Assembly: GCF_009914755.1 (NCBI RefSeq)
Contig: NC_060947.1
From: the human T2T-CHM13v2.0 reference genome, Homo sapiens
Strand: one strand, 5' to 3'
Length of the DNA stretch: 64,000 nucleotides
Shown: positions 6,333-51,400 of the stretch, in pieces
Layout of the letters: every line of letters begins with the position of its first letter
Position numbering within the stretch: position 1 is the stretch's first letter
Notes under the pieces: generated by a model
What the model saw: the letters and a program-made list of their open reading frames with translations, nothing else
Database searches by the model: none
Told to the model about the DNA's origin: nothing
Translations under genes and position numbers: made by a program

Positions 6333-6489
6333 AGGAGATATCACCACTGATTTCACAGAAATACAAACTACCGTCAGAGAATACTATAAACACTTCTATG
6401 CAGGTAAACTAGAAAATCTAGAAGAAATGGATAAATTCCTGGACACATATACCCTCCCAAGTCTAAACCAGGAAGAACTCGAATCCCTG
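6333..6489 (+). mobile_element. Internal L1 ORF2 fragment (~155 bp) at a duplication junction
   Basis: Matches 26188-26344 of the full-length L1 (gatatcaccactgat...aaaccaggaagaa..gaatc). No 3'UTR, poly(A) or TSD. Confidence 0.9.
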
Positions 6490-8945
6490 CCTCTGCCGGG
6501 TAAAAGTCATGGGGAAGGCACTTGTATTCTGGGCTCTACGTCTGTCCTTCCTGCCAACCACCCATTCTCAGGCACTCACTAGAAACTTAATCTAGCATAG
6601 GACTTTATGTCTGTCGAGGCCACTTACTCATGAAGCGACCTTGGTAGCGGTTGACACAATTTGTCTAATATAATTCAAAGGAGAATCAATGCCTGCACAT
6701 CCTGGAAGAGGGCTAGGAGGGGAAAGAGTGAGGACTACACTCATGTGCATTACACACATAGCCGAGTGCCTGCCACATGTTACCCTAAGGTGCCCAATGA
6801 AAAATGGTTATGATGGCTTTTATTGTAGTGCTGGATGCTGGAAGGTGAGAAAGGATGAGATGTGGCCCCCATGGTCTGTGACATTGCAACTGAGGGGCAA
6901 CTAGCACAGGAATGATCCCCAATGATTATCAAGAGAAGGCAGCATGTGATCAAGGCCGCCATGCCTGCATGCTGGGGGTTCGGAGGGGAGGAAGAAGTGT
7001 AGGCGGGGAACTCACCACAGGCCCGCACCAGACACTGCACTTAGCATGCTATATCGACTCTCTCTTTCCTTCCTCATCACAATCCGTCTGTGGGGATGTG
7101 GCAAACAAGTATGCCCATGTCACAGTTGGAGATCTGGAGACTCATGAAACGAGCAGTGGCTCTAGGCTGGGAGGGTCAGGACATCTTCACAGGGGAGTCA
7201 GGATTTGAGCCAAGACCTGAAAAGTGAATAAAATTCAGTTAGGGAGACGGTGGGTGGGGGCAAGGAGGTGGTATGGGAAGCCAGGTTCTGTGGCAGTGAG
7301 TGGAAATAACTTGTCACAAAGCCCCGAGTGGGTAGTGCCCCAAGCCGGGAGCACTGTAAAGTTGCTCCCCAGCAACTTCCCGTCAGGACTCAGAGCAGCA
7401 TTATCTCTACCGCTTCACTAACATGTGGCTCAGGACGGGAAAGTCATTGTCCCTTATCTCACTGTCAGCTCGAAGCAAACAGATGGGGCCCAGGTAGCCA
7501 GGAGAGCGTGTTCATTCAGCTGTCTGGCACTGGATCCCACCCCCACCACCTGCCATTGCCTGAGGGCACAAATCTCGGAATTGGGACCAGGTACAGCCGG
7601 CATTCATTGGTTGCTGACTATGTATCTGGCACCGTGTCTGCATCATCACCCTGGATCTTCACAACCACCTTCTAGACCCCTGTTCCACAGAGGAGGAAAC
7701 TGAGGCTCAGAGAGGTCAAGCCACTTGCCAATCGCAGTACAGCTAGTAAGAGATACAGCTGGGGTCTCAGCCCAGGTCTCCTCTGACTCCCAAATCGATG
7801 CCCTCAATCACTCTTTCTGTCGAGTCCGGTCCCACTAGCTTACATGAGTCCTATGACCCAAACAGACGTTCTCAAGGTGTTGTGTCGCTTTCCCATGTTA
7901 ATGCAGCCTAGCCACACCAGTTGCCTCCAGAAAACAAAAGCACCAGAATGTCAAAGAGAAGAAATCATGAAAAAGATGCTATTAAAAGTAAATCAGTCTC
8001 ATTGCCCACGAATCTTTTTGTCCCAAAACACAAGGGACGTTCTTATTCTATTGCCAGATCTTTCCCCAGAAGGGTGGCCACACATCCTGATTTTGCCTAT
8101 TGTGCCAGCCCAATTATTCGTAGTTCCCCATTCCCTCCAAATGCTGCCCTCACATATATTCAACAGGAAATTGCTTGCTCACCCTACCTATGAAAAGGCA
8201 AAGAAGCCTCACACATCAGGTCTTTGGCAACCCTGACACACCATGTTGAGCGAGGATCCTCAGCTCTTCCAAGAGAGAGTGGGCTCCTGGAGGAAGAAAT
8301 AAGGAATAAACAGATGAGGAATATGATTTAGAGAGGATCCTAGTACAACCCAACTTGTCTGGAACTGGAGTAGTCAGAGAACAAGGGTGGAAGAATGCGT
8401 GGAACGCAGACCTCGCTCTAGTTGAGAGTTGGCAGGGTTGAGCACTTGCTCTGCGGCAGGTGAGTGTTGGGGAGCAGGTCGACCGACACCCACAGTGATT
8501 GCCAAGCAACGAGACCATCGAATCGCCTCCAAGGCCAGGAGGCTTGCTGATAGGCTCCCTGCGTGGCACTTCATTCAGTCAGATGTGGAGTTGCTGGCCC
8601 GTGACATAAGCCATGGGGTGACTACAAAAGGCCATCCCGCTGGTGGTCAGCCATCATTGTCCGTTCCTCACATCCACTGGCAGTTGCCTCCAAGATGGCT
8701 GAGCCTTCCTCTGAGACAACCTCCAATGAATGCCTGAACATGAAAGATCCCACAGCAGCCGAGGCCACTATGGCCCACAAGCAGCAGAAGACAAGCAGCT
8801 GATATTTCTGGGTTTTCACCTTTTCTTGTTTGTTTTGTTTTCGTTAAAGTAAAGGTACCTTTTCAGGTAAGTTTCACCAAGATTATGACACAACCAAGGA
8901 TGCATGAGATGTCTCCAAAGAGGAGGAAAATAGATTTCACAAGGT
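6486..8945. repeat. Right arm of ~2.45-kb local inverted repeat
   Basis: Reverse complement of 270-2725. Confidence 0.95.
8695..8802 (+). pseudogene. H2B.W 5' fragment (N-terminal tail only, 35 codons)
   Basis: MAEPSSETTSNECLNMKDPTAAEATMAHKQQKTSS*. Same ERV junction as the 413-523 copy. The TATA is mutated to TACAAAA (8623-8629). Confidence 0.85.
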
Positions 8946-9349
8946 GGAGTGGCCTTTGTTGTTATTCCCACATGGGGCAGTTTGAGCAGACACAGGAGGT
9001 TATCTTTGTTTTGGTCAGATTTTTTGCTCGTCACTTTTGTCAAGCCAAATTTTAAGGCTAACTGTCACACCATGATGTGTCTTTTTATATGTTTAACCTT
9101 TTTATCAACTGGTTAGAATGAGAAATCTCTAAAATCCTTTTAATATAATTTAGCGGGTTAATTTAGAGGATCAATCTATTGGTTATTGACAATTAGAATT
9201 CTCAATATTGTACTGAAGTTCAATAGCGACTGGATGCCATATCCTCTTCAGAGAAGAAGCAATCCCAGAGTTTCCTCTTGTTCCCAGACATAGGCTAAGA
9301 TAACAAATGACTCGGGGGATAGCAGTTTGCCAGCACACGCTGGGTAGAC

Positions 9350-9657
9350 CAGCGGTCCCCAACCTTTTTGACACCAGTGACTAGTTTCAGGGAAGACAAT
9401 TTTTTCCATGGAATGGCATTGGGGGTGATGGTTTTGGGATGACTCAAGTGCATTACACTTATTGTACACTTTATTTCTATTATTATTATATTTTAATGTG
9501 TAATGAAATAATTTTACGACTCACCATATTGTAGAATCAGTGGTAACCCTGAGCTTGTTTTCCTGCCACTAGACGGTCCGATATGGGGGTGATGGGGGAC
9601 AGTGACAGATCATCAGTCATTAGATTTCCATAAGGAGTCTGCAGCCTAAGATCCCTC
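9350..9657 (-). mobile_element. MER1A (hAT-Charlie), truncated duplicate of 55507-56040
   Basis: TIR cagcggtccccaacc. The flank is the reverse complement of 56041-56070, so this is the same insertion duplicated. Confidence 0.8.
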
Positions 9658-9739
9658 AGTCCCCAATATATATATTAGACTCCTGACCCCTCATCTCTCT
9701 CCTACTTGAAGTAGGTCCTTAACTGGGGTACTCAAGTTA

Positions 9740-12570
9740 AATTACATTCATTAAGGTGTGCTCTAACCAAAATGACTAGAATGCATTCTGCATACCATAA
9801 GGGGAAATTCAGACACAGAGACATGCGTCCAGGGAAGAAAACGTGAAGTGGCATGGGGATAAATGGGCCACTTACAAGCCAAGGAAAGATCCCTGGAAGA
9901 GATCCTTCCCTCTTACTACTCAGAAGGAACCAACACAGCTGGCACTTTGATTTGGACTTCCAACCTGCTGAACCGTGAACAATAAATTTCTGCTGTTTAT
10001 GCCATCAGATCTGTGGTACTTTTTCAGAATAGCCCTAGCAAACTACTAGAGACTCTGTTGCCAAGCAGTGGGATGATGCAATAAGGAACCTCCAAAGATT
10101 GGACGAGGCCTCGGAACTAGGTAATGCATACAGGCTGGAAGTGTTTTGACATGCATGACACAAGAAGCCTAGAGTGACTTTAGGAAACAGCGGAGGGAAA
10201 TATGAACACCAAATGCAATTGAAACGAGGGCTAAGAAGAATTATTTGCTGTAGAGAAAGGATCTCTGACTTAGAGAATACATGTATCATGATCACCGAAA
10301 TGTTGCTAGAACTATGTGTGTTAAAGGTGCTTGTGGCGTGTTTGCAGACGGAGACTACGAAGAGGTTATTGGAAGCATGAGGAAAGGCCATCCTAGTTTT
10401 ACAGTGGCAAAGATTTGGGCTGTATTGTGTTCTTAGTGTCTTTGAGGAAAGCAGAATTTGTAAGTGATGAACTTGCACATGTAGCTGATTTCTAGTTTTG
10501 GAGTTCAGGGCACAATACCAAAAAATGGGGGCTTCAGAAGTATTTTCAGATAAAAAAGATTTTCTCTGACATTCTTGGTCCTCCTGTCTCTCAGTCCCAT
10601 TCAACCTCAGGGGCTAAACCCAGGAACCAGAATCCTTCTTCCCGAAGGTGGGTTCTAGAAACCAGAAGCTCTTTTTTATAGTCACAAAACCAAGAAATGA
10701 TATTGTAATATCTTCCACATTTTCATGTAAAAACTGTCCATGAAGAAATGATCTAACCTATCTTCTTTGAATGGAAGTCAGAAGACCCCCATTCCAGAGA
10801 GGGTCCTGCCCCGTATCCGGGAGGAAGGACTGTGTGCTCAGATAGGCCAAGCAGAGTCTAGACACACAGGCCTTGCCAGGTTTCCCCCACTCAGCCTATT
10901 CGCATTAGATCATAGTCTTTTTGTCCCATCATATTTCTACACAGATGTCCATATTCCTTTAAGCCAAGGCATAAAAATGGATAATAATTTCCCATGTATC
11001 TTTGGCTATTAACACTAAAGACTCCCAGGGAGACACATTGTATAAGTTGGTATGCCTTATGTCCTATGGATCTGCCTTTTGTGACTTGAGTTTTCAGTGA
11101 AACTTAAGAGGACAAGGGGGGAATCTTGGCCACTACACTGACAAACTGAGAAAAGTATTTAGGATTTAATCTGGTTTCTCCTAGATCTGTATAGTGAATG
11201 GGAGAGAAGAGAGAGAAATTAGCAAAGGAAGAACTGAGTAAAAGGAAGTCAGCATTGGATGACTCAGAAGGTACTCAAAAGATGCAGATACCTTGCTCTG
11301 GAAATAGGTGCAAGGGTGTGCCTGGAAGACCGTTAGCTAAAGAGGGGAGGTATGTGTCTCACAGATCCAATCAACTGTCTCTGCAGAAGTTAGGAATTGA
11401 AATATGGAAGATATTGGTATTCACGAAAGATCTTTAGACAACTTCTTGTCTGATGGCCTGGACGCATGTGAATTCCGTGGGAAGCCAAGAATTTTTTGAG
11501 AATTTTACAGCAGAAAAACATTGCCAGACTGGACTGAACGGGACAAAGATGGGACGAAATTCAAGGAGGCTGTTAGAGTTCCTGGACTGTACCGGCAAGA
11601 AAGGGACTGACTGAGGCACCCAGCTGTGACCATTTCTTCATTTTCGAGACAGGGAGGAAGGACTCCAAAGTTGGGTCAGAGGTTGGCATGGCCGTCACTG
11701 CCCCCAAGAACCAGGGGCACGGTACTAGGGGACTGGGCCATCTCTCTCTTGGTCCCAGAAATGGAGGTCACCTCCTGAGTTCCAGGCATTTGTCCCACCT
11801 CCTCGGTTTCAGAGGGATGGGCTGCAGCAGCCCAGGCTGGGGGGAGAGCCCCCACCCGGCTGCCCAGGGCTTAGGGTGTGAAGCTGTTACCCCATTGGGC
11901 CTGAAGGACAGAGCACTGAGCCCAAGCAGAATCTTTTCCATCTTTAGAATGTAACGGAATTTGCCCCCATTAGGTTTCAAAAGTGCTTAGGGCCCACGTA
12001 CTCCAGTAGTTTTTCGGATTTCCTGCTTTTGGTATGATAAGCCCTATCTGGTATCAGTCTCACAACTGTCTTTCAGAAGGAGATAACTTGTCTAGCTTCA
12101 CAGATGCAGTGGTGGAGAGAATTCCCGCCTCAGCATGAATCATACCTGGAGGCTCACCCATTCCAGATATAGAAGATTATCAGGTGAGATATTAGAGAAT
12201 TGACGTTGGAGTGAGTTAAGTCTTCAGGGATGTTGTGATGAAATGAATGTATTTTCTATGTGAGGTTGTTAATTTGTGTCACGGAGTGGTGCAGAAGGTG
12301 TACTAGTATGTATGGAGTTGTGTCTCCCTACAATTCAGAGGTAGAAGTCCTGGCCCCCAGTGTTTTAGAATGTGACCTTATTTGGAGAGAGTCTTTAGTC
12401 AGGTCATCTGGTTAAAGTGAAGTTATGAGGGTTGACCTTATCCAACAGGATTGGTCTCCTTACAAAATGGTGACAATTGTAATCCAGAACTGTGAGATAA
12501 AAAATACATAGTGTTTAAGTCAGCCAGTCTCTGGAATATTTTTCAGCGGCCCTAGAAAACTGATAGAATA
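9740..12570 (+). mobile_element. ERVL-MaLR LTR/internal block with a nested ERV1-type LTR (~10495-11137)
   Basis: MaLR LTR motifs (gaaccgtgaacaataaatttctgctgttt; aatgtgaccttatttggaga) and internal-like sequence. Paralogous blocks at 45700-48450, 53470-54890 and 57847-59900. Confidence 0.65.
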
Positions 12571-13459
12571 CACCTCCATCAGAAGCATTGAAAGCATACA
12601 ACCCATCGAAGAGCCAAAGAAGCACACCCATGTAATCACAGGTTTCCCCTTCAACTCCCATTGAACATCCCTGGACAACTAACTCTACCTATTTCAGACC
12701 AGGAAACCTGATCACACATTGGGCCATGGCCCCTTGGCTGCAGTTGCCTCACTGGCTGACACGGATCTGAGTGGAGCTTGTGCTGCTCCATTGGACGGCA
12801 TTCCATCATCCCCATGATGCACTGAGGCCAGTCATGAAGGTTTTCTTAAACAAAAGATTCTAGCCTGAAGAAGAGCAGAATCAGGTAAATCTAAACAAGT
12901 GAGATTTCATTACGAAGGAGCCTAGAATAGGTATTGTTCCTTAGACTTTTTGATGTAGTTTTCTCTGCCGTGTTTGTGTCCTTGCTTATATTTTCAAATG
13001 AACTCCAGGTTACAGGGAAGGCTGATCAAATGTTTGACTGGACTCTCTTTATCCCATTCATGCTGTTTTCCCTACATTGATACTTCTTATTTGTTGTTTA
13101 AGCAGTAAAGGTCTTTCCCGTAGTTTGCGTTTCTTTAAGTCACAGCATGACATCATGATTGCCTAATAGGTTCCGCTTCTGCTCAATGACCCAAAGAAAT
13201 ACCATATCAAATGTGTGAGCTTCCTCCTCCGATCTTCACATCAATCCACCCCTTTCCTCTTTCTTCCTGTAATTCACCGGCATCAGTCCCCTTGCCCCCT
13301 CACTCTTCACTCCCCACAACCAAATCAGATTTCATTGTTAACCCTGTTTTACTAATGGCCCTCTTTGATTTCTGAATTTACAAAGGGAAAACACATATTC
13401 CAAGGTAAAATATCTCAGTGGATTTGGTTTCTCAAAAGGACTTGTCTAATTACACACAT

Positions 13460-13803
13460 ATGCAAGGGTAACTTCAGAAATTTATTCGTATGTCTTAATT
13501 CACAGAAACATTGGCATTTTACAGCAAAACAATTAGCATAATGAGAAATAAGTCACTGAGTGAGATGTGGTGTTTTGTCAGGTACACAGCTCTGTCTCTG
13601 GGAAGAAGCAGGGTTCTGGCAAGGGTCTTTGGTTTGGCAAGGGTTGTTCCGGACTTGTAGGAACATTTGGTGGCACCATCCAGAAGGATTTACTTGCAGC
13701 TGATTTTGTGGGGTTTTTCTTGGTCTCCTCGTGCAATAAGCACAACTTCAACTATTTTCATAACATTTCTCTTCAGCTATTTCTGTAATATTTTTCTAAT
13801 AAT
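13460..13803 (-). other. H2BW2: H2BW2 predicted non-coding exon 3 with AATAAA (13481-13486)
   Basis: Acceptor tttcttttttttccag at 13804 and poly(A) signal, both conserved in the H2BW1 arm. The 3' end is approximate. Confidence 0.65.
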
Positions 13804-15050
13804 CTGGAAAAAAAGAAAGTAACAGATCCCAATGAGTGGACTTCTTGGTTCTATATCATTTCTCTATGGATCCCAAGTGGAGCTCTGGAGGTGACCTTCC
13901 CCTCTTCCCATCTGCACTACTCAGGGAAGCTCTGGCTACCATCTTGCCCTGACCCTGTTTCCCTCTTGACCAAGGGGTCCTCTTTAAATGGTGGAATAAT
14001 CTATGTGGCTATGTGTTGGGCCCTCTGGGGTGGTTCTTTCCCACTTCTGATGGGCTCAAGAAAATTTTGATTTTTGTCATTTATCCAGCTTTTGTTTCAT
14101 GGTTTGACTGAGAGTGCCATCCTTTACTGGTTTCTACATATGAAGGAGAAGGGTTGTTTATGAGATGTTTCAAAATTTACGGGAAACATTTAACAAAAAT
14201 GGCCACATGTTGAGCTTCAAGGCACAACATAATAAATTCCTGTGGGTTGCAGTCCCAGAGTATGTTCTCTTGTCCACATACTCGGGCGACTGGAAATCAA
14301 TGGAAAAGGAAAGCAATGGGAAAGTGAGCACCTGCTCTGAAATTCAGCAATACACTTATAGAAAAAAATGCTTAAAATGCCAAGACTTGGGACCCAGAAG
14401 AGAGCACAATGAAAGGTAGCCTATATTAATATTAACATGAATATAAATATGCTAATCTTTTGAGGAAATAAGCCTTATCTGACTTCTACTAATGGTTGCC
14501 AATGTTCTGTATAACTTGATGTTAGGGACAAGGTACATATTCTAATCTTAGCTTTGGATTCATATCCCTAAAAGATCATGATTACAAGCAATGCAAACAA
14601 AAACATCAGGTAAAGAATCACACTGCCGTTCCTTTAAACACCAGGTTGAATATAACAGGAAGGCTGCTGTGGGTTCAGCTTGGGTCACTCCCCCCACATT
14701 GGGTCAATGACTGTTGCTCATAGACTGCAGGTCACTCATTGGCTGTACCACTGTACACTAGGGCATGAGCTGTTTCCGTGGACACTCCGTAATCCTACTG
14801 ACACACACCTGGAAGTAAGGAAGGTTTCTGTTCAAAAAGAAATGAAAAAATTACTGTCAGTACAAAAAGAGAATGAATTACAATAGTGGTCTCAGAGTCG
14901 GGGAAGCTGGAAAACGAATGGATTCTTGAAAATTTTATTTAGCCATATATATACTGTAACTGGGCCTCGTTTGCTTATTTACATGGATTCATGATGAGAG
15001 AGATGCTGAACACATTTAGGAGGGTTACCTTGCTTCTTGTATCAGCATAT

Positions 15051-15087
15051 TCACTTTCTCTGTTGCCATATCGCACATAATGAAGTT
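15051..15087 (-). CDS. H2BW2: Histone H2B.W2 (H2BFM) coding exon 2: (R)TSLCAIWQQRK*
   Basis: Acceptor tttccag at 15088. The 428+37 nt spliced CDS gives 154 aa, matching the H2BFM C-terminus as recalled. Donor AAG|GTAACC at 15029. Confidence 0.9.
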
Positions 15088-15437
15088 CTGGAAAATCCCA
15101 CCATCCAGTCGTAGGAGAATGAGAGTGAAAAAGGTAAACATCAGTACATTGATAACATCATCATAAAGATAACCTAGAAAGATAACTAAGAAAAACGGCC
15201 ATTTGGGAAACTGAGGACACGAAACACGATTACGGAAACACCCCCTACTTTTCCTTGGAGCATATTGCACTACAGATATATTGGAGTTGACAGTGTTTTG
15301 CACTGTGGGAAAAATGCTTGAAAAACCGCAGGAGGCCACACGGCACATGCCCCCCAAGCTGGAACGGTGCCACCCACACCAACCTCCGGTGGGGTCCCCC
15401 CCTTGGCGGGCCACTGGCCTATAGGGCCACGGGCGGT

Positions 15438-15453
15438 GGTTCTGAATAGAGCC
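15438..15453 (-). terminator. Degenerate histone 3' stem-loop within H2BW2 intron 1
   Basis: CCCAAA-GGCTCT-ATTC-AGAACC-ACC vs canonical CCAAA-GGCTCT-TTTC-AGAGCC-ACC; 38 nt after the unspliced TGA. Confidence 0.85.
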
Positions 15454-15510
15454 TTTGGGTTTCCCAGGTGCTCAGGCGCTCCTGAGACAGCTCACTTGCT
15501 TTTGGTGTAC

Positions 15511-15938
15511 CTGAGGGCGGCATTCGTGCCCTGGGCCTCGGCGAGCTTGCCCATCTTCCCCGGCAGCAGCAGTCGCACGGCCATCTGGATGTCCCGGGAG
15601 GTGATGGTCACGCGCTTGGTGTAATGGGCCAGCTGACCAGCCTCGGTGGCGATGCGGTCCAATATGTCATGGATCATAGAATCCATGACACTCACGGCCT
15701 CCTGGGAAAGGCTGAGGCCCTGGTGAACCTGCTTCAGCACCCGGGGGAAATAGGGGGTGAAGCTGTCCCCGAAGCTGTCCCCACGGCGGTTGGCGTGGCG
15801 CCTGCGGGAGCCTCGGCACCCTCGCCTCTTCTGCTTCTGGGCCTTCGTGGAGTTGGCCTCTTTGGGCTCCTGGATGCTCTGGCCTTCCTCCGAGGTTGTC
15901 TCAGAGGAAGCCTCAGCCATGGCGGAAGCAGCGGCCAT
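15511..15938 (-). CDS. H2BW2: Histone H2B.W2 (H2BFM) coding exon 1
   Basis: MAAASAMAEASSETTSEEG...DSFTPYFPRVLKQVHQGLSLSQEAVSVMDSMIHDILDRIATEAG...RLLLPGKMGKLAEAQGTNAALR is an H2B histone fold. Donor CAG|GTACAC at 15511/15510. Confidence 0.97.
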
Positions 15939-15989
15939 TAGATAGCAAGAACAGAGAGTGACGGTTGGGGACCAGGGAAGTGGGGGGCA

Positions 15990-16485
<496 letters not shown>

Positions 16486-40725: not shown

Positions 40726-42119
40726 ATTAGAGAAACAAAATAAGGACTATATATTACAATTTTGCATCACGTAGATGATGGGAACATCCTGTGAGAGCAG
40801 CTCATGCCATAGTCACCACTGGCTCAGGCAATAAAGGCTTTCCAGCCCTTGAGGCACCACAAGCCATGGCTGAAAGTGTGGGGAGGTGACCCGGAAATGA
40901 ACCAGTGAGAGCCTCCCTGGGAGGTTTAACCTTGCAGATTGTGAAGAAAAACGATGTGGCTCTTTCCCTGTTTTTTGTTTGCTTTTTTTTTTTTAAGAAA
41001 AATATCATGCTGACTTACTGATATGAATACAGAGATTGTTGTGGACAGGTCTCTTGTGCCTTGTACCAAACTACGAGAAGGATTGTCTTGCTAAACGTTT
41101 AAGTAGATTTATAAGATCATCATTTGTAAAGGGGACTGTTCAGAAATGGTGTACTAGAGTTCAGTCACAGAGCTTACCATATACGATCTTATCTAACAAC
41201 AAAAATGAGCCTTTTTGTCCTTCTTAATCGTGAACCAATTTATTAGGAGTAGAATAAGTTGTTTGCTAAAGACATGACAGGAAATACACTTGAAAGCCTG
41301 ACCTTTGAAATGACAGTTCATCGATGACCTTTATTTCTTCAGCATTTCTTAAGAATCTTTCTTGTTCAATTCCTGCAACTTAATGTTACTTAAATGCATT
41401 TAAGGAATGCCTTTGCGTATATTATCAGAGACTCTTGAAAGCTCTCTTTCTAACTTGAACATAATTTCCATTTCTGGAATCCCTTTCTCTCCCTCAGGGG
41501 CTTCCTAGGAGATTTAAGGCGATATTTTTTAACCCAATATCTCTTAAACTTATTAGCCATTTCCAGCTTTTGAGTTGTGATTTGTGGTTGTTGTTTTGCT
41601 TTCCTTTTTTTTTTTTTAATTATTTTTTTAAACCTGGTCGATGTCGAGTGTTGTCATATGTTTTTAATAAAAGTGCCTTTCTGTTTCTATTGTCTGCTTG
41701 GAGGCTGGGGTATGGCCATTTCTCATTCTCCTGATTCACGGAAGATGTTGATCAGTACTGAAGCCCGGAGCCAGACCGCTAGGTCCTTTGATGCCCAGGC
41801 GGCCATGTCAGGGAGTTCCTGCTCAAGCCAGGGTGGCTTAGCCCAGGATAACAGTAGCTTCTGAGATGGGTGACAATTGTTCCACACGTGGCCACAGTCA
41901 TTCTTCCGGCATAATGGACTTGGGCTCAGGAGGTCTGTCTCTCTTCAGGGATCATGAGCTGAAATTGCTAAACTTTGGGAGTTTTCAGTGACACCCTTCA
42001 AAGTGCTCACAGTGTGGCATGGATCAGCTGAGAAGGGCGGATGCGCTTTTGCCCCGTGAGGCATCTATCTGTGTAACTTTCTCCGAGCTGGGCCACAAGG
42101 GGCGCTTAGGCCCGCAGAC

Positions 42120-42270
42120 GCCCACTGTGATTGGTTGACGAGATGCCACGCAATGGGACCATCCAGTCACCTTCAACGCAGGTAGGTTTGCTGAGAGGCT
42201 CCCTGCGTGACACTTCATCCAATCAGACGTGAAGCTGGCCCGAGACGTGGAGCCATGCTGCGTACCGAAG
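42120..42270 (+). promoter_or_regulatory. H2BW1 promoter: opposed CCAAT boxes (42129-42134, 42219-42224), ACGT CRE-like cores
   Basis: Motifs read directly; colinear with the three paralogous promoters. Confidence 0.6.
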
Positions 42271-42320
42271 TGCCCCGGCTTCCCCGGTCCACAACCGCCA
42301 TTGTCTGGTCGTGCCATCTA

Positions 42321-42745
42321 ATGGCCACTGCCTCCGCCATGGCTGGACCTTCCTCTGAGACGACCTCTGAGGAACAGCTGATCACCCAGGAGCCCAAAGA
42401 GGCCAACTCCACTACGTCCCAGAAGCAGAGCAAGCAGAGGAAGCGAGGGCGCCATGGGCCCCGCAGGTGCCACTCCAACTGCCGCGGGGACAGCTTCGCC
42501 ACCTATTTCCGCCGGGTGCTGAAGCAGGTTCACCAGGGCCTCAGCCTTTCCCGGGAGGCCGTGAGTGTCATGGATTCTTTGGTTCATGACATATTGGACC
42601 GCATCGCCACCGAGGCTGGTCACCTGGCCCGCTCCACCAAGCGCCAGACCATCACTGCCTGGGAGACCCGGATGGCTGTGCGCCTGCTGCTGCCGGGGCA
42701 GATGGGCAAGCTCGCCGAGTCCGAAGGCACGAAGGCTGTCCTCAG
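42321..42745 (+). CDS. H2BW1: Histone H2B.W1 (H2BFWT) coding exon 1; in-frame upstream ATG at 42255 gives the 175-aa form
   Basis: MATASAMAGPSSETTSEEQL...DSFATYFRRVLKQVHQGLSLSREAVSVMDSLVHDILDRIATEAG...EGTKAVLR. Donor CAG|GTACAC at 42745/42746. Confidence 0.97.
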
Positions 42746-42802
42746 GTACACCAGGAGCAAGTGCGCTCCCTCAGGAGCACCCGAGCACCACGGGAACCCA
42801 AA

Positions 42803-42818
42803 GGGTCTTTTCAGAGCC
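42803..42818 (+). terminator. Degenerate histone 3' stem-loop (plus HDE-like GAAAGACCAGTG at 42833-42844) within H2BW1 intron 1
   Basis: CCCAAA-GGGTCT-TTTC-AGAGCC-AC: one mismatch from canonical GGCTCTTTTCAGAGCC. Confidence 0.88.
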
Positions 42819-43166
42819 ACTGAATGTGGCCTGAAAGACCAGTGGCTCGCCAAGGGGGACACCACCGGAGGCTGGGGTGGGTGGTGCCCTTCCGACTTGG
42901 GGGGCATGTGGCGTGTGGCATCCTGCAATGTTTCAAGCATTTTCCCCTCAGTACTAAACATTGTCAGCTCCAATATATCTGTAGTGCAGTTTGCTCCAAG
43001 GAAAAATAGTGGGTGTTTCCGTGATCGTGTTTCATTTCCTCAGTTTCGTAAACGGTCATTTTTGTTAGTTATGTTTCTAGGCTATCTATATGGTGATATT
43101 ATTACTGCACTGATCTTTACCTTTTTCTGTCTCATTCTCCTGTGACTGGATGGTGGAATTTTCCAG

Positions 43167-43203
43167 AACTTCACTGTATGCCATACAGCAACAGAGAAAG
43201 TGA
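43167..43203 (+). CDS. H2BW1: H2B.W1 coding exon 2: (R)TSLYAIQQQRK*
   Basis: Acceptor ttttccag at 43166. The 425+37 nt CDS gives 153 aa (175 from 42255). Donor AAG|GTAACC at 43225. Confidence 0.92.
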
Positions 43204-44451
43204 ATACGCTGATACAAGAAGCAAGGTAACCCTCCTAAATGTTTTCAACACCGCTCCCATCACGAATCCATGTAAATAAGCAAATGAGGCCAAGTTACAG
43301 TGTACATACAGCTAAATAAAATTTTCAAGAATCCATTCATTTTCCAGCTTCCTCGACTCTGAGATCACTATTGCAGTTCATTCTTTTTTTGCCATGACGA
43401 TAATCTTTTCGTTTCTTTTTAAACAGAAACCTTCGTTACTTCCAGGTTTGTGTCAGTAGGCTTAGGGAGTGTCCACAGAAATGGCTCATGCCCTAGTGTT
43501 CAGTGGTGTAGCCAATGAGTGACTTGCAGTCTATGAGCAACAGTCATTGTCCCAATGTGGGGGCAGTGAACCAGGCTGAACCCACAACAGCCTTGCACTG
43601 ATATGCAGTCTGGTGTTTGGGGGGACAGGGTTGTGATTCTTTACCTGATGTTTTTGTTTTCAGTGTTTGTAATCATGGTCATTTAAGGATATGAATCCAG
43701 TGCTAGGAGTAGTATATGTTCCTTGCCCCTAGCATCAAGTTATGCAGAGGATGGTCAGCCTTTAGGAGAAGTCAGATAACGCTTATTTCCTCAAGAGATT
43801 TGCATATTAATATTCATGTTAATGTTAATATAGGTTAGCTTTCATTGTGCTTTCTTCTGGGTCCCAAGTCTTTGTATTTTTAGCACTTTTTCCTATGAGT
43901 GTATTGTTGAATTTCAGAGCAGCTGCTGACTTTCCCATTGCTTTTCTTTTCAGAGGATCTCCAGCCGCCCGAGTATGTGGACCAGAGAACATACTCTGGG
44001 ATTGCGACCCATAGGAATTTATTGTATTGTGCCTTGAAGCTCAATATGTGGCCATTTTTGTCAAATGTTTCCCGTGAATTTTGAAACATCTCATAAACAA
44101 CCTTTCTCCTTCATATGTAGAAACCAGTAAAGGGTGACACTCTCAGTCAAACCATGAAACAAAAGCTGGGAAAATGACAAAAATCAAAATTTTCTTGAGC
44201 CCATCAGAAGTGGGAAAGAACCACACCAGATGGCCCAACACATAGCCACATAGATTATTCCACCTTTGGCAGAGGACCGTTTGGTCAAGAGGGAAATGGG
44301 GGCATGGCAGGATAGTAGCCAGAGCTTCCCTGAGTAGTGCATTTGGGCAGCGTGGGCAGTTCACCTCCAGAGCTCCACTTGGGCTCCGTAGAGAAAGGAT
44401 GTAGGGCCAAGAAGTCCCCTCATTGGGATTTGCTACTTTCTGTTTTTGCAG

Positions 44452-44780
44452 AATATTAGAAAAATGTCATGAAAATAGTTGAAGAGAAATGCTCACTGCA
44501 CAAGGAGACCAAGAAAAACCCCCCACGAAATCAGCCACAACTAAATCGCTCTGGACGGTGCCGCCAGGTGACCCTACATGTCCGGAGCAACACTTTGAAA
44601 ACCAAAGACGCTTGGCAGAACCCTGTTCCTTTCCAGAGACAGAGCTGTGTACCTTGTCTAAAACACCGCATCTCACTCAGTGACTTATTTCTCATTATGC
44701 TAATTGTTTTCGCTTTAAAGCGCCAGTCTTTCTGTCAAATGGGACATACAAATAAATTTCTAAAATTATCCTTGCATGTC
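44452..44780 (+). other. H2BW1: H2BW1 predicted non-coding exon 3 with AATAAA (44751-44756)
   Basis: Acceptor tttctgtttttgcag at 44451 and poly(A) signal, conserved with H2BW2. The 3' end is approximate. Confidence 0.65.
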
Positions 44781-47700
44781 TACTGGGTAATTTGACATGT
44801 CTTTTTCAGAAACCGTATCCATTGGGATATTTTACCCTGGAGTGTGTGTTTTCCATTTGTAAATTCAGAAATGAATGAGGAGCATTAGTAAAACAGCGTT
44901 AACAATGAACTCTGATTGGGCTGTGGGGAGTGAAGAGTGAGAGTTCAAGGGGACTGATGCCGGTGAGTTATAGGAAGAAAGAGAAAAAGGCTGCTTTGAT
45001 GTGAAGATGGGCAGAGGAGCTCACACATCTGCTATAGCATTTCAGTGGGTGATTGAGGAGAAGGGGAACCTAGTGAGCAATCGTGATGTCAAGCTGTGGC
45101 TTACTGAAAACACAAAGTAAGGGAAATAGCTTTACGGCTTAAACAACAAATAAGAAGTATCAATGTATGGAAAGTAGGATGAATAGGACAAACATAGTCC
45201 AATCAATCTTTTCATCAGCATTCCCTGTACCATGGAGTTCATTCGTAAACATGAGCAAGGACCCAAAGACAGTACAGAGAAAATGATATAAAAAATTTTA
45301 AGGAACAATACCTATTCTAGGCTCCCTAGAAATGGAATCCCACTTGCTTAGATTTGTCTGATTCTGCTCTTCTTCAGACTAGAATCTTTTGTTTTTGGAG
45401 ACCTTTATGCCTGGCCTCTGTTCATCATGGGGATGATGGAATGCTGTCCGATGGAGCAGCACAAGCTCCACTCAGATCCTTGTCAGCCAGTGAGGCACCT
45501 GCAGCCGAGGAGCCACAGCCCAATGTGTGATGAGGTTTCCCGGTCTGAACTAGGAAGAGTTACTTGTCCAGGGATGTTCAATGGGAGTTGAAGGGGAAAC
45601 CTGTGATTACATGGGTGTGCTTCTTTGGTTCTTCGATGGGTTGTATGCTTTTAATGCTGCTGTTGGAGGTGTATTTTATTATATTAGTTTTCTAGGGCCG
45701 CTGCAAAAATATTCCAGAGACTGGCTGACTTAAACACTATGTATTTTTCATCCCACAGTTCTGGATACCTATTGTCACCTTTTTGTAAGGAGACCAATCC
45801 TGTTGGGTAGGGTCAACCCTCATAACTTCACTTTAACCACATGACCTGACTAGAGACTCTCTCCAAATAAGGTCACATTCTAAAACACTGGGGGCCAGGA
45901 CTTCTACCTCTGAATTGTAGGGAGACACAACTCCATCCATACTAGTACACCTTCTGCATCCACTCCGCGGCACAAATTAATGTCCTCACATAGGAAATAC
46001 ATTCATTTCATCACAACATCCCCAAAGACTTAACGCCCTCCAACGTCAATTCTCTAATATCTCACCTGATAATCTATATCTGGAATGGGTGAGCCTCCAG
46101 GTATGACTCATGCTGAGGCGGGAATTCTCTCCACCACTGCACCTGTGAAGCTAGACACGTTGTCTGCTTCTGAAAGACAGTTGTGGGACTGGTGCCGGAT
46201 AGGGCTTATCCTACCAAAAGCAGGAAATCTGAAAAACTACTGGAGTACGTGGGCTCTAAGCACTTTTGAAACCTAATGGGGGCAAATTCCGTTACATTCC
46301 AAGGATGGAAAAGATTCTGCCTGGGCTCACTGCTCTGTCCTTCAGGCCCAATGGGGTAACAGCTTCACACCCTAAGCCCTGGGCAGCGGGGTGGGGGCTC
46401 TCCCCCCAGCCTGGGCTGCTGCAGCCCATCCCTCTGAAACCGAGGAGGTGGGACAAATGCCTGGAACTCAGGAGGTGACCTCCATTTCTGGGACCAAGAG
46501 AGAGATGGCCCAGTCCCCTAGTACCGTGCCCCTGGTTCTTGGGGGCAGTGACGGCCATGCCAACCTCTGACCCAACTTTGGAGTCCTTCTTCCCTGTCTC
46601 GAAAATGAAGAAATGGTCACAGCTGGGTACCTCAGTCAGTCCCTTTCTTGCCGGTACAGTCCAGGAACTCTAACAGCCTCCTTTCATTTCGTCCCATCTT
46701 TGTCCCGTTCAGTCCAGTCTGGCAACATTTTTCTCGTATAAAATTCTCAAAAATTTGTTGGCTTCCCATGGAATTCACATGAGTCCAGGCCATCAGACAA
46801 GAAGTTGTCTACAGATCTTCCTTGAATACCCATATCTCCCATATCTCAATTCCTAACTTCTGCAGAGATGGTTGATTGGATCCGTGAGGCACATGCCTCT
46901 CCTCTTAGGCCAATGGTTTTCCAGGCACACCCTTGCACCTGTTTCCAGAGCAAGGTATCTGCATACTTTGAGTACCTTCTGAATCATCCAGTGCTGGCTT
47001 CCTTCTCCTCAGTGCTTCCTTGGCTAATTTCTCTCACTTCTCTCCCATTTACTGTAGGCATCTAGGAGTAACCAGATTAAATCTAAATACTTTTCTCAGT
47101 TTGTCAGTGTAGTGGCCAAGGTTCCCCCTGGTCTTCTTAAGTTTTGCTGAAAGCTCAAGTCACAAAACGCAGAGCCATAGGACATAAGGCATACCAACTT
47201 ATTCGAAGTGTATCCCCAGAGGCTTTAGTGTTAATAGCCAAAGATACATGGGAAATTATCCATTTTTATGCCTGGGCTCAAAGGAGTATAAACAGCTGTG
47301 TAGAAATACGATGGGACAAAAAGGCTATGATCTAATGCTAACAGGTGGAGTGGGGGAACCCAGCAAGGCCTGTCTGTCTAGACTCTGCTTGGCCTATCTG
47401 AGCACACAGTCCTTCCTCCCGGATATGGGGCAGGACCCTCTCTGGAATGGGGGTCTGGTGACTCCAAACAACATAGGTTCGATCATTTCTTCATGGACAG
47501 TTTTTACATGAAAATGTGGAAAACATTACAATACCGTTTCTAGGTTTTGTGACTATCTTTAGAAAAAAGAGCTTCTGGTTTCTAGGACCCACCTTCCGGA
47601 AGAGGGATTCTGGTCTCTAAGTTTAGCCCCCGGGGCTGAATGGGACTGAGAGACCAGAGGACCAAGAATGTCAGAGAAAATCGTTTTCATCTGAGACTAC

Positions 47701-48448
47701 TTCTGAAGCCCTCATTTTGGGATAGTGTGCCCTGAGCTCCAACACTAGAAATCAGCTACATGTGCAAGTTCATCACTTACAAATTCTACTTTCCTCAAAG
47801 ACACTATGAAGACAATACAGCCCAAACCTTTGCCACTGTAAAACTAGGATGGCCTTTCCTCGTGCTTCCAATAACCTCTTCCTAGTCTCCGTCTGAAAAC
47901 ACACCACAGGCACCTTTAACACACATAGTTCTAGCAACATTTTGGTGATCATGATATATGTATTCTCTAAGTCAGAGATCCTTTCTCTACAGCAAAGAAT
48001 TCTTTCTTAACCCTCGTTTCAATGTCATTTGGTGTTCATATCCCCCCCGCCGTTTCCTGAAGGCACTCTAGGCTTCTTGTGTCATGCCTGTCACAACGCT
48101 TCCAGCCTGTATGCATTACCTAGTTCCAAGGCCTCTTCCAATCTTCCGGATGTTCCTTATCACATCATCCCACTGCTTGGCAACAGAATCTCCAGTAGTT
48201 TGATAGGGCTATTCTGACAAAGTACCACAAACATGGCGGCATAAAAAGCAGAAATTTATTGGTTACATTTAGGCAGGCTGGAAGTCCAAATCAAAGCGCC
48301 AGCTGGGTTGGTTCCTTCTGAGTAGTAAGAGGGAAGGATCTCTTCCAGGGATCTTTCCTTGACTTGTAAATGGTCCACTCTTGCGCATGCCACTTCACAT
48401 TTTCTTCCCTGGATGCATGTCTCTGTGTCTGAATTTCCCCTTTTGGTA

Positions 48449-51400
48449 TGCCGCAGAGCAAGTGCTCAACCCTTCCGACTCTCAACTAGGGCGAGCTCTG
48501 CGTTCCACGCATTCTTCCACTCCTGTTCTGCGACCTCTCCAGTTCCAAACAAGCTGCGTTGTACTAGGAATCCTCTCTAAATCATATTCGTCATCTGGTT
48601 ATTCCTTATTTCTTCCTTCAGGAGCCCACTCTCTCTTGGGAGAGCTGCGGATCCTCGCTCAGCGTTGTGTGTCAGGGTTGCCAAAGACCTGATGTGTGAG
48701 GCTTCTTTGCCTTTTTCATAGGCAAGTGAGCACATAAGTTCTTGTCTAATAAATGTGGGGGCAGCTTTCAGAGTGAATGGGGCACTACGAATCATTGGGT
48801 GGGACAATAGGCAAAACCTGTACGTGTGGCCACCCCTCTGTGGAAAGATCTGGGGATAGAATAAGAACATCCATTGGGGTTTCGAACACAAAGTTTGGTG
48901 GGCAATGAGAGCGATTTACTTTTAATAGCATGTTTTTCATGATTTCTTCTCTTTGACATTCCTGTGCTTTTGTTTCCTGGAGACAACTGGTGTGGCTAGG
49001 CTGCATTAACATGGGAAAGAGACACAACACCATTAGAGCGTCTGTTTGGGTCTTAGGACTCATGTGAGCTAGTGGGACTGGACTCGACAGCAAGAGTCAT
49101 TGAGAGCATGGGATTGGGGGTGAGAGGAGACCTGGGCTCAGACCCCAGCTGTGCCTCTTAGAGGCTGTACCGTGTTGGGCAAGTGGCTTGACCTCTCTGA
49201 GCCTCAGTTTCCTCCTCTGTGGAATAGGGCTCTAGAAGGTGGTTGTGAAGATCCAGGGTGATGATGCAGACGGGGTGCCAGATACATAGTCAGCAACCAA
49301 TGAATGTCGGCTGTACCTGGTCCCAATTTCGAGATTCCTGCCCTCCGGAAATCACAGGTGGTGGGGGTGGGATCCAGTGCCAGACAGCTGTATGAGCACA
49401 CCCTCCTGGCTACCTGGGACACATCTGTTTGCTTCGGGCTGACAGTGAGATAAGGGAGGATGATTTTTCCCCCCTGAGCCACATGTTAGTGAAGCAGTAG
49501 AGATAACGCTGCTCTGAGTCCTGACGGGAAGTTGCTGGGGAGCAACTTTAAAGTGCTCCTGGCTTCGGGCACTAACCACTCGGGGCTTTGTGGCAAGCTA
49601 TTCCCCCTCACGGCCAAGGAACCTCGCTTCCCATACCACCTCCTTGCCCCTGCCCACCGTCTCACTATCTGAATCCTATTCACTTTTCAGGTCTTGGCTC
49701 AAATCCTGACTCCCCTATGAAGATGTCCTGACCCTCCCAGCCTAGAGAGACTGCTCCCTCCTTGAGTCACAGGATCTCCAACCGTGACATGGGCACACTG
49801 TTTGCAACATCCTCACAGACGGATTGTGATGAGGAAGGAAAGAGAGAGTCGATGTAGCGTGCTAGGTGCAGTGTCTGGTGCAGGCCTGTGGTGAGTTCCC
49901 TGACTCTTCTTCTTCCTCCCTTCTGAACCCACAGCATGCTGGCATGGCGGCCTTGATCACATGCTGCCTTCTCTTGATAGTCATTGGAGATCATGTCTGT
50001 GCTAGTTGTCCCCTCAGTTGCAATGTCACAGACCACGGGGGCCACATCTCATCCTTCCTCACCTTCCAGCATCCAGCACTACAATAAACGCCATCGTAAC
50101 CATTTTTCATTGGGCACCTTAGGGTACAATGTGGCAGGCACTCGGCTATGTAGGTAATGCACATAAGTGTAGTCCTCACTCATTCCCCTCCTAGCTCTCT
50201 TCCAGGATGTGCAGGCACTGATTCTCCTTTGAGTTATACCAGACAGATTTGGTCAACCGCTACCAAGGTCGCATCATGAGTAAGTGGCCCTGACAGGCAT
50301 CTAGTCCTATGCTAGATTAAGTTCTAGTGAATGCCTGTGAATGGGTGGTGGGCAGGAGGGAAAGATGTAGAGCCCAATATAGCAGTGCCTGCCTTGTACT
50401 TTTACCAGGCAGAGGCAGGCCTGCTTGAGAGAAAGCTGTAGGCAATAAAGACATAGGACTCAGTGGGTCCTCGAGCTCAGGTAAGGGGATATAGTCCCTC
50501 CAGGACAGGGGGAGAAATGGAGAGGGGATGGTTCAAGCTAAACCTCAAGGCAGCTGTCCCAGGGAATTCCACAGTGGCTCCAGGATCCCCCAAAATAGTA
50601 GCAGATGACCCACCCACTGGCCATCCTCAAGGTGAACTGTAGAACAAGCCCGGGTCAAGAAAGCCTCCTTGGAAAAGGTCTGTTAGCCTAGAAGATGTTG
50701 AATCCCTTGGGAGTCCACAATGGGCATTTCACTCCCACAGATCCTTGGGAGAGAACCAGGCCACAAGATCACCCGTGTGACCTATGATGCAATGAGGAGA
50801 CAGGCTCCACTGTGCTTAAGTGTCCCTTACAAGTAGAAGCCAGAGGAGCTGCACTCAGTGCTATTTATTCACCCGATGCCTAAGGTCATTGGGGAAGGTC
50901 CCAGACAGCTTGTACCAGCACGCCTGATGCCTTGGAGGGGCTGGCTGGAGGCCTGAGCTCAACCGGGCCTCTGCACCTCTCCAAGGCCCCTCAGAGCATA
51001 TCACTGTGGTGTCTCCAGCAGGAGAGGTGGACTTCTTAGGGGGCAGCTCAGAGCTCTCAGACAGCCAGACAGAGGCCACTCTAGTCCTCTGAAAGGTTAC
51101 CTCTGGGACAGGCTAAAGTCCGCCATTCTCCATGTGTCAAAGCCATCAACGGGCCTGTCGGGAGCCCAGAGGGAGGGGCAAGCAGACGCAACCAATGTGC
51201 CAATACGAAGAGCATTCAGGAATGGGCAGCCTTTCTGAGATGCAGCCTATTCAGCACACGCTTCTTGAGATGCTGCTGGGTGGCACACACAGAGCATGTG
51301 CATAAGAAGTGGTCCTTTAACTCTCTGGGTCGAAGGGGTAGGCTCTCAAATGGTTTTACACTGGACCTATCACTAGCAGGGTGACATCTCCCATTTAGTG

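What the first reader, a model, noticed from the sequence alone, without database searches (positions are those of the whole stretch)
42797..42847. The two stem-loops broke the same base pair independently
Seen: H2BW1 has GGgTCT-TTTC-AGAGCC (5' arm change) and H2BW2 has GGCTCT-aTTC-AGAaCC (3' arm change plus loop position 1). Both disrupt pair 3, and combining them restores the canonical hairpin. H2BW1 keeps an HDE-like GAAAGACCAGTG ~15 nt downstream. Inference: the hairpin was intact at duplication although exons 2 and 3 already existed, so both processing modes coexisted, and arm conversion could regenerate it.
Basis: partly seen in the sequence, partly recalled or inferred. Interest (0 to 1): 0.7.

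Follow-up and report, generated by a model that had tools for sequence, protein, structure and literature searches.

The report
Decaying histone stem-loop relics in H2BW introns
The two testis histone genes H2BW1 and H2BW2 each carry, inside their first intron, a worn-out copy of the RNA hairpin that normally ends histone messages, and the fact that both copies lost the same base pair looks like coincidence during ordinary decay.

Summary
H2BW1 has GGGTCT-TTTC-AGAGCC at window 42803-42818. H2BW2 has GGCTCT-ATTC-AGAACC at 15453-15438 on the minus strand. Each loses stem pair 3 through a change on a different arm.

Both hairpins lie in intron 1, 38 nt after the old H2B-type stop codon. They are relics of the replication-dependent histone 3' processing signal. 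Three more X-linked copies let me polarise the changes. The 3'-arm G>A is shared by H2BW2, H2BW3P and H2BW4P. The 5'-arm C>G is private to H2BW1. An unannotated, more distant fifth copy keeps pair 3. So the hairpin was most simply intact when the W1 and W2 lineages split, and exons 2 and 3 were already shared by then.

That does not show that both processing modes were in use. The relics vary as much as the surrounding intron. Two stem hits fall in the same pair one time in six by chance. All copies score below the Rfam Histone3 threshold. H2BW1 has lost the stop codon that a hairpin-ended mRNA would need.

Stem-loops beside H2B.W genes are already in print (Raman 2022). Interest is low.

The parts
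42798..42823 (+). H2BW1 relic histone stem-loop element. It comprises the CCAAA flank, the stem GGGTCT/AGAGCC with a G.G mismatch at pair 3, the loop TTTC and the 3' flank ACTGA. It lies in intron 1.
   Evidence: Sequence read. Rfam Histone3 scores 22.2 bits against a gathering score of 34. Folding energy is -5.2 kcal/mol in the canonical register, against -9.3 for a chr6 H2B hairpin.
42833..42844 (+). H2BW1 remnant resembling a histone downstream element (GAAAGACCAGTG), 14 nt after the stem.
   Evidence: Sequence read. The predicted duplex with the 5' end of the chr12 U7 copy is -13.7 kcal/mol. Eight canonical sites give -14.6 to -23.9, and 8.2% of 466 background windows are as strong.
42744..42751 (+). 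H2BW1 exon 1 donor AG|GTACAC. It lies inside what is the ...K-Y-T... codon run of canonical H2B; the canonical AAG TAC reads AGG TAC here.
   Evidence: The hub annotation ends exon 1 at 42745. Sequence read. The canonical H2B sequence AAGTACACC is seen.
42762..42764 (+). Former H2B-type stop codon, now TGC in H2BW1. Read unspliced, the frame stays open through the hairpin.
   Evidence: Alignment (W2, W3P, W4P and X5 have TGA here). Read-through translation.
15438..15453 (-). H2BW2 relic hairpin GGCTCT-ATTC-AGAACC, with a C.A mismatch at pair 3 and loop position 1 changed from U to A. It lies in intron 1.
   Evidence: Sequence read. Rfam Histone3 scores 16.7 bits, E = 4.8. Folding energy is -2.8 kcal/mol.
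15412..15423 (-). H2BW2 counterpart of the downstream element (TATAGGCCAGTG), degraded.
   Evidence: Alignment. The U7 duplex is -7.5 kcal/mol, and 70.8% of background windows are as strong.
15492..15494 (-). Old H2B-type stop codon TGA, retained in intron 1 of H2BW2. Unspliced, the frame would end ...LRYTKSK*.
42068..50419 (+). H2BW1 arm of the old inverted duplication that holds both genes.
   Evidence: blastn against 16192-6486 gives 87.5% and 89.3% identity in two collinear pieces. Inverted repeats are also seen.
6486..16192 (-). H2BW2 arm of the same inverted duplication.

Best explanation
The two hairpins are non-functional relics of the stem-loop plus downstream element that once formed the 3' end of an intronless, replication-dependent-type H2B gene.

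In the H2B.W lineage a GT donor sits 16 nt before the old stop codon; canonical AAG TAC reads AGG TAC. Splicing from it to two downstream exons with an AATAAA replaced the last codons and bypassed the stem-loop, which became intron sequence.

Since then each paralog has accumulated substitutions in the relic at the background rate:
- C>G in the 5' arm on the H2BW1 lineage.
- G>A in the 3' arm on the common stem of H2BW2/H2BW3P/H2BW4P.
- Later hits at loop position 1 and at pair 1.

That two of these hits fall on the same base pair is coincidence.

Shown here: the sequences, their homology, the distribution of states among five copies, the scores and the rates. Inferred: the order of events and the present lack of function.
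For: - Location: the hairpins sit in register 38 nt after the old stop codon, inside intron 1 (hub annotation).
- Copies: 5 X-linked copies were found among the 31 matches of the genome search.
- States: AGAACC is shared by W2, W3P and W4P. GGGTCT is private to W1. X5 has AGCTCT-TTTC-AGAGCC.
- Tree: (canonical,(X5,(W1,(W2,(W3P=W4P))))) with supports 91/90 and 99/95.
- Gene structure: exon 2, exon 3, their splice sites and the AATAAA are shared by W1-W4.
- Rfam Histone3, gathering score 34 bits: four canonical controls score 35.7-38.9, X5 25.6, W1 22.2, W2 16.7, and W3P/W4P are not listed at E <= 10. There were 0 hits in the window at gathering thresholds.
- Stability in kcal/mol: canonical -9.3, W1 -5.2, X5 -5.5, W2 -2.8, W3P unfolded.
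- Neutral rate, W1 against W2: 5 of 26 positions of the element differ (19%), against 16% for the rest of intron 1.
- Neutral rate, four distinct copies: 4 of 16 hairpin columns vary, against 106 of 294 in the rest of intron 1, p = 0.43.
- Stop codon: W1 has lost it (TGA>TGC), with no in-frame stop for the 50 codons read past the old stop, which run through and beyond the hairpin.
- Chance of the same pair being hit twice: 1/6.
Against: - W1 still has 5 of 6 pairs, the canonical loop, the G at stem position 2 that SLBP reads (passages of PMC10388802), and a downstream element whose predicted U7 pairing (-13.7) is only just below the weakest of eight canonical sites (-14.6).
- Raman et al. 2022 (PMC8857922, passages) could not detect H2B.W transcripts in poly(A) data. 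They speculated that stem-loop processing might be the reason.
- With only four distinct sequences, the test for constraint has little power.
- No expression data and no other primate sequence were available here.
Confidence: 0.8

Rival explanations
1. The H2BW1 hairpin (or the H2BW2 hairpin) is weakened but still used. A fraction of transcripts would stay unspliced and be cleaved by the U7 snRNP after the hairpin, so the gene would run in two processing modes today.
For: - W1 keeps 5 of 6 pairs, the loop TTTC, the flanks and the position-2 G.
- Its U7 duplex of -13.7 kcal/mol lies in the top 8.2% of 466 background windows, at the right distance from the stem.
- Canonical H2B genes with a donor upstream of the stem-loop do run in both modes (Lyons 2016, PMC5100578, passages).
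- Raman 2022 raises this idea for H2B.W (PMC8857922, passages).
Against: - Rfam scores are 22.2 and 16.7 bits against a gathering score of 34.
- In W1 the unspliced frame has no stop codon before the cleavage site, so the product would be a non-stop mRNA.
- W2 has loop U1>A, and its U7 pairing is no better than background (-7.5, with 70.8% of windows as strong).
- The element diverges at the intron rate.
Confidence: 0.1
2. The two hits on pair 3 were each selected, because disabling the hairpin favoured the spliced, polyadenylated mRNA. The shared target would then reflect function, not chance.
For: - Both lineages carry a mismatch in the middle of the stem, next to the G-C pair that SLBP reads (PMC10388802 passages).
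- The W2 clade also changed loop position 1, to A in W2 and to G in W3P/W4P.
Against: - The chance of the same pair being hit twice is 1/6. All six changes cluster no more than expected: P = 0.19 by columns and 0.087 by structural units.
- Any stem position would have served to disable the hairpin.
- The number of changes equals the neutral expectation.
- The pseudogenes W3P/W4P carry the same 3'-arm change and went on decaying.
Confidence: 0.06
3. The hairpin was already broken at the W1/W2 split. The present pattern arose by reversion, or by gene conversion from another paralog.
For: - Raman 2022 report recurrent gene conversion among mammalian H2B.W paralogs (PMC8857922, passages).
- A 1.2-kb tract downstream of the genes (45668-46867) is only 4-6% diverged between the arms, against 13-18% in the gene body. 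Arm-to-arm exchange has therefore probably happened here.
Against: - It needs at least three changes where two suffice.
- X5 and all canonical H2B genes carry the unbroken states.
- Identity around the hairpin is at the low, gene-body level of 82-83%, with no sign of a converted tract.
Confidence: 0.04

Closest known systems
Replication-dependent histone mRNA 3' stem-loop with histone downstream element (Rfam RF00032 Histone3; SLBP/U7 snRNP processing)
   Same: - Same flanks (CCAAA ... AC).
- Same 6+4+6 layout and the same register after an H2B stop codon.
- G at stem position 2.
- A purine-rich element at the right distance downstream.
   Different: - One stem pair is lost in W1 and W2, and two in W3P/W4P.
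- Loop U1 is changed in W2.
- Scores are below the family threshold.
- The site is intronic in the annotated transcripts.
- In W1 the stop codon upstream is gone.
Dual-mode clustered H2B genes HIST1H2BC/BD/BK (H2BC4/5/12), Lyons et al. 2016 (PMC5100578, passages read)
   Same: These are H2B genes in which a 5' splice site upstream of the stem-loop lets splicing to a downstream polyadenylated exon remove the stem-loop from the mRNA.
   Different: - In those genes the donor lies between the stop codon and an intact stem-loop, the protein is unchanged, and both modes are documented.
- In H2BW1/2 the donor lies 16 nt before the old stop, so the C-terminal tail is replaced. The stem-loop is degenerate, and only the spliced form is annotated.
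Stem-loop plus poly(A) signals reported at H2B.W and H2B.1 genes, Raman et al. 2022 (PMC8857922, main-text passages; their figure S15 is not held)
   Same: It is the same element in the same gene family. They raise the same idea of alternate processing.
   Different: The passages I could read describe the element as lying in the 3' UTR. They give no account of the mismatches, of the intronic position in human, or of which paralogs share which change.

Membership tests
Histone 3' stem-loop (Rfam RF00032) | Score at or above the curated gathering threshold (34 bits) | tested here: not met
   W1 scores 22.2, W2 16.7 and X5 25.6. W3P/W4P are absent at E <= 10. Four canonical controls score 35.7-38.9. 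There were 0 hits in the window at gathering thresholds.
Histone 3' stem-loop (Rfam RF00032) | Six consecutive standard base pairs closing a 4-nt loop | tested here: not met
   W1 has 5 of 6 pairs (G.G at pair 3). W2 has 5 of 6 (C.A at pair 3). W3P/W4P have 4 of 6. X5 has 5 of 6 (A.C at pair 1).
Histone 3' stem-loop (Rfam RF00032) | Loop beginning with U, as in the family consensus UUUa shown by cmscan | tested here: inconclusive
   W1 and X5 have TTTC (met). W2 has ATTC and W3P/W4P have GTTC (not met).
Histone 3' stem-loop (Rfam RF00032) | G at the second stem position, the base read by SLBP Arg181 | tested here: met
   The G is present in all five X-linked copies. The requirement is taken from passages of PMC10388802.
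Histone 3' stem-loop (Rfam RF00032) | Downstream element able to pair with the 5' end of U7 snRNA | tested here: inconclusive
   Duplex energies in kcal/mol are W1 -13.7, W3P -11.5, X5 -10.1 and W2 -7.5. Eight canonical sites give -14.6 to -23.9. The background mean is -9.2 with SD 3.0.
Histone 3' stem-loop (Rfam RF00032) | Lies in the 3' UTR shortly after the stop codon and forms the mRNA 3' end | tested here: not met
   It lies in intron 1 of the RefSeq transcripts (hub table). The old stop codon 38 nt upstream is kept in W2 but is TGC in W1. Actual 3' ends could not be tested.
Dual-mode H2B genes (H2BC4/5/12 type) | 5' splice site upstream of the stem-loop, with a downstream polyadenylated exon | tested here: met
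   AG|GT at 42745/42746 (W1) and at 15511/15510 (W2). Exons 2 and 3 and the AATAAA are shared (hub table).
Dual-mode H2B genes (H2BC4/5/12 type) | Intact stem-loop used in the alternative mode | tested here: not met
   The sequence is degenerate. Use of the site could not be tested with these tools.

The most novel reading that the evidence does not exclude
The H2B.W family passed through a dual-mode stage, and in part may still be in it.

The unannotated fifth copy (T2T chrX 102346075-102345674, minus strand) would be an intronless H2B.W-type gene. It has a 133-codon open frame that ends at the old stop codon. It has no donor. Its hairpin is the best-preserved of the five, with a 5-bp stem and a canonical loop. 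It might be expressed as a stem-loop-ended, non-polyadenylated mRNA that poly(A)-based surveys miss.

The H2BW1 hairpin, with its single G.G mismatch, might still attract SLBP/U7 weakly.
Probability: 0.08. Interest if true: 0.5.

Novelty: already known. Interest (0 to 1): 0.22.

Why it matters
It documents, base by base, how a variant histone gene left the stem-loop pathway. A single A>G inside the coding end made a splice donor, splicing bypassed the stem-loop, and the stranded signal then decayed neutrally and independently in each paralog. That is a tidy illustration of a route already known from living dual-mode H2B genes, not a new mechanism. Its practical value is small. It argues that H2BW1 and H2BW2 transcripts should be polyadenylated, so failure to see them in poly(A) data probably has another cause. 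It also flags an unannotated fifth H2B.W-like copy worth a look in testis RNA.

Tried and rejected
Polarity rests on shared states in the alignment.
- Churikov 2004 (DOI recalled, possibly wrong) and Boulard 2006 are not held. Whether the first description of the gene mentions the intronic hairpin is therefore unknown to me.
- Raman 2022 figure S15 (stem-loop/poly(A) survey): only its title is in the stored supplement. Their Table S1, as held, lists only H2B.W.1 and H2B.W.2 for human.
- Literature searches for H2BFWT or H2B.W with stem-loop, hairpin or intron found no description of the mismatches.
- Clustering of the six hairpin changes as a sign of hotspots or selection: rejected, P = 0.19 and 0.087. 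Neither changed position of pair 3 is in a CpG.
- The upstream region shared at about 90% by W1 and X5 as a common transposon: rejected, only 5 genome matches.
- Constraint on the X5 open frame: omega of 0.55-0.60 against W1/W2 and a weaker Pfam Histone score (62.2 bits, against 102 and 89) leave gene versus pseudogene open.

Full report
**What is there**

In H2BW1 (plus strand) the window reads CCAAA-GGGTCT-TTTC-AGAGCC-ACTGA at 42798-42823. GAAAGACCAGTG follows at 42833-42844, 14 nt after the stem. In H2BW2 (minus strand) it reads CCAAA-GGCTCT-ATTC-AGAACC-ACCGC, with the hairpin at 15453-15438.

The chr6 H2B genes fetched from the same assembly carry GGCTCT-TTTC-AGAGCC after the same CCAAA flank. 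Against that, W1 has C>G at 5'-arm position 3. W2 has G>A at the partner position of the 3' arm, plus T>A at loop position 1.

**Where it sits**

By the hub annotation, exon 1 of H2BW1 ends at 42745 and exon 1 of H2BW2 ends at 15511. Both hairpins are therefore in intron 1.

The sequence just past the donor still reads like the end of an H2B gene:
- W2 continues ...LRYTKSK followed by TGA.
- W1 continues ...LRYTRSK followed by TGC.
- Canonical H2B ends ...TKYTSSK-stop.

The hairpin starts 38 nt after that old stop codon, which is the usual place for a histone stem-loop. The donor AG|GTAC lies inside the old coding end. Canonical H2B has AAG TAC at this spot, so one A>G suffices to create the GT.

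In W1 the old stop codon is lost. The unspliced frame then runs on for the 50 codons read past the old stop, through and beyond the hairpin. A hairpin-ended W1 mRNA would therefore have no stop codon.

**Other copies**

A search of the window's own assembly with 42600-42930 gave 31 matches. Five are on the X chromosome:
- H2BW1 itself.
- H2BW2 (83% identity).
- Two copies at the hub positions of H2BW3P and H2BW4P (82% each).
- A fifth at chrX 102345503-102345836, minus strand (74%). It is in neither the hub gene table nor the human rows of Raman's Table S1 as held. I call it X5.

The other 26 matches are H2B genes or H2B-like sequence on chromosomes 1, 3, 6, 13 and 21.

Aligned in register, the hairpins are:

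| Copy | Hairpin |
|---|---|
| W1 | GGGTCT-TTTC-AGAGCC |
| W2 | GGCTCT-ATTC-AGAACC |
| W3P = W4P | TGCTCT-GTTC-AGAACC |
| X5 | AGCTCT-TTTC-AGAGCC |

W3P and W4P are 100% identical over the 5.5 kb fetched.

**Polarity of the changes**

A tree of the histone-fold coding part, with four chr6 H2B genes as outgroup, gives (canonical,(X5,(W1,(W2,(W3P,W4P))))). Support is 91/90 for W1-W4 and 99/95 for W2+W3P+W4P.

On that tree:
- The 3'-arm A is confined to W2/W3P/W4P.
- The 5'-arm G is confined to W1.
- X5 and every canonical gene have C and G at the two positions.

The simplest reading is two independent changes after the W1 | W2-clade split, from a hairpin that was canonical at that split.

Exon 2, exon 3, their acceptor and donor sites and the AATAAA are shared in register by W1, W2, W3P and W4P. 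The spliced gene structure therefore predates the split.

No other primate genome was available.

**Rough timing**

Intron distances (K2P):

| Pair | K2P |
|---|---|
| W1-W2 | 0.145 |
| W2-W3P | 0.066 |
| W3P-W4P | 0 |
| X5-W1 (alignable part of intron 1) | about 0.30 |

The shared G>A therefore arose in the first half or so of the time since the W1/W2 split. X5 branched off about twice as long ago. Raman et al. 2022 state that W.1 and W.2 are distinct throughout simian primates (PMC8857922, passages), which fits.

**State of the relics**

| Copy | Rfam Histone3 bits (gathering 34) | Energy in canonical register, kcal/mol | Duplex of the U7 5' end with the 45 nt after the stem, kcal/mol |
|---|---|---|---|
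| Canonical controls | 35.7-38.9 (four) | -9.3 | -14.6 to -23.9 (eight sites) |
| X5 | 25.6 | -5.5 | -10.1 |
| W1 | 22.2 | -5.2 | -13.7 |
| W2 | 16.7 | -2.8 | -7.5 |
| W3P/W4P | none at E <= 10 | unfolded | -11.5 |

- A gathering-threshold scan of the whole window found nothing.
- The U7 sequence used is the chr12 copy, L015.
- W1's duplex energy is matched or beaten by 8.2% of 466 background windows, and W2's by 70.8%.
- W1's downstream motif is thus a recognisable remnant at the right distance, but it is marginal.
- The G at stem position 2, which SLBP reads through Arg181 (PMC10388802, passages), survives in all five copies.

**Constraint and chance**

Between W1 and W2 the 26-nt element differs at 5 positions (19%). 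The rest of intron 1 differs at 16%.

Across the four distinct copies, 4 of 16 hairpin columns vary, against 106 of 294 alignable columns in the rest of intron 1. Fisher p = 0.43. There is no sign that the hairpin has been protected since these copies diverged, although four sequences give little power.

Two independent stem hits land in one pair with probability 2/12. The six changes seen in the hairpin occupy four columns and three structural units, which random placement reaches with P = 0.19 and 0.087. The 'same pair' coincidence needs no special explanation.

**Did both modes coexist, and could conversion restore the hairpin?**

An intact hairpin next to a working donor is exactly the arrangement of the living dual-mode genes HIST1H2BC/BD/BK. 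There a donor between the stop codon and the stem-loop yields spliced, polyadenylated mRNAs lacking the stem-loop in differentiated tissues (Lyons 2016, PMC5100578, passages). A dual-mode stage for the H2B.W ancestor is therefore plausible.

The present data cannot separate it from a hairpin that was intact only because too little time had passed since the donor arose. X5 lacks the donor (CAC TAC) and has no recognisable exon 2. It could mark the state before the intron was gained, or a later loss.

On conversion:
- W1 and W2 lie in an inverted duplication, 42068-50419 against 16192-6486, at 87.5-89.3% identity.
- A 1.2-kb tract downstream (45668-46867) is only 4-6% diverged, so arm-to-arm exchange has probably occurred.
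- Around the hairpin, identity is 82-83%.
- A restoring tract would have to end within the 3 nt between stem position 3 and loop position 1.
- Even then, W1 would lack a stop codon and W2 a usable downstream element.

**What is in print**

Raman et al. [quoted passage not shown] They speculate about alternate processing (PMC8857922, passages; their figure S15 is not held). Reviews list H2BFWT as having two introns and being polyA+ (PMC4584325, passages).

My searches found no account of the mismatches or of their distribution among paralogs. The original gene description (Churikov 2004) could not be read.

**Verdict**

The relic is real and already known in outline. The inference of an intact hairpin at the W1/W2 split is supported by shared states. 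The functional conclusions drawn from it are not shown. The coincidence that drew attention is within chance.

Noticed in passing
outside the window: T2T chrX 102346075-102345674, minus strand (window coordinates about -77925 to -78326); locus L013:3675-4076: A fifth H2B.W-like copy ('X5'). It is absent from the hub gene table and from the human rows of Raman 2022 Table S1 as held. It has a 133-codon open frame that ends at the old H2B-type stop (...HYTRSK*), and no GT at the W1/W2 donor site. Its hairpin AGCTCT-TTTC-AGAGCC lies 35 nt after the stop and is the best Rfam Histone3 score of the five (25.6 bits). Pfam Histone scores 62.2 bits. Omega is about 0.55-0.60 against W1/W2. Gene or pseudogene is undecided.
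   Followed up: partly
L011 and L012 (H2BW4P and H2BW3P loci, outside the window): The two pseudogene loci are 100% identical over 5.5 kb in inverted orientation, about 86 kb apart. The hub coordinates of the flanking lncRNAs mirror about the same centre. Together they look like the arms of a large, homogenised palindrome that encloses the window.
   Followed up: partly
window 45668-46867 paired with about 12540-11350 (minus strand): Within the old W1/W2 inverted duplication, this roughly 1.2-kb non-genic tract is only 4-6% diverged, whereas the gene bodies are 13-18% diverged. This suggests a later arm-to-arm conversion or a constrained element.
   Followed up: no
window 41760-42200: The promoter-proximal sequence of H2BW1 is shared only with W3P, W4P and X5 (82-84%), plus a 117-nt match at chrX 102018256-102018372. 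H2BW2 lacks it; its homology to W1 starts at 42068.
   Followed up: partly
window 43167-43203 and 15087-15051 (minus strand): Exon 2 replaces the old ...YT(K/R)SK end. The new tail reads TSLYAIQQQRK in W1 and TSLCAIWQQRK in W2 when I translate by eye from the alignment. The pseudogenes W3P/W4P keep the same acceptor and donor.
   Followed up: no
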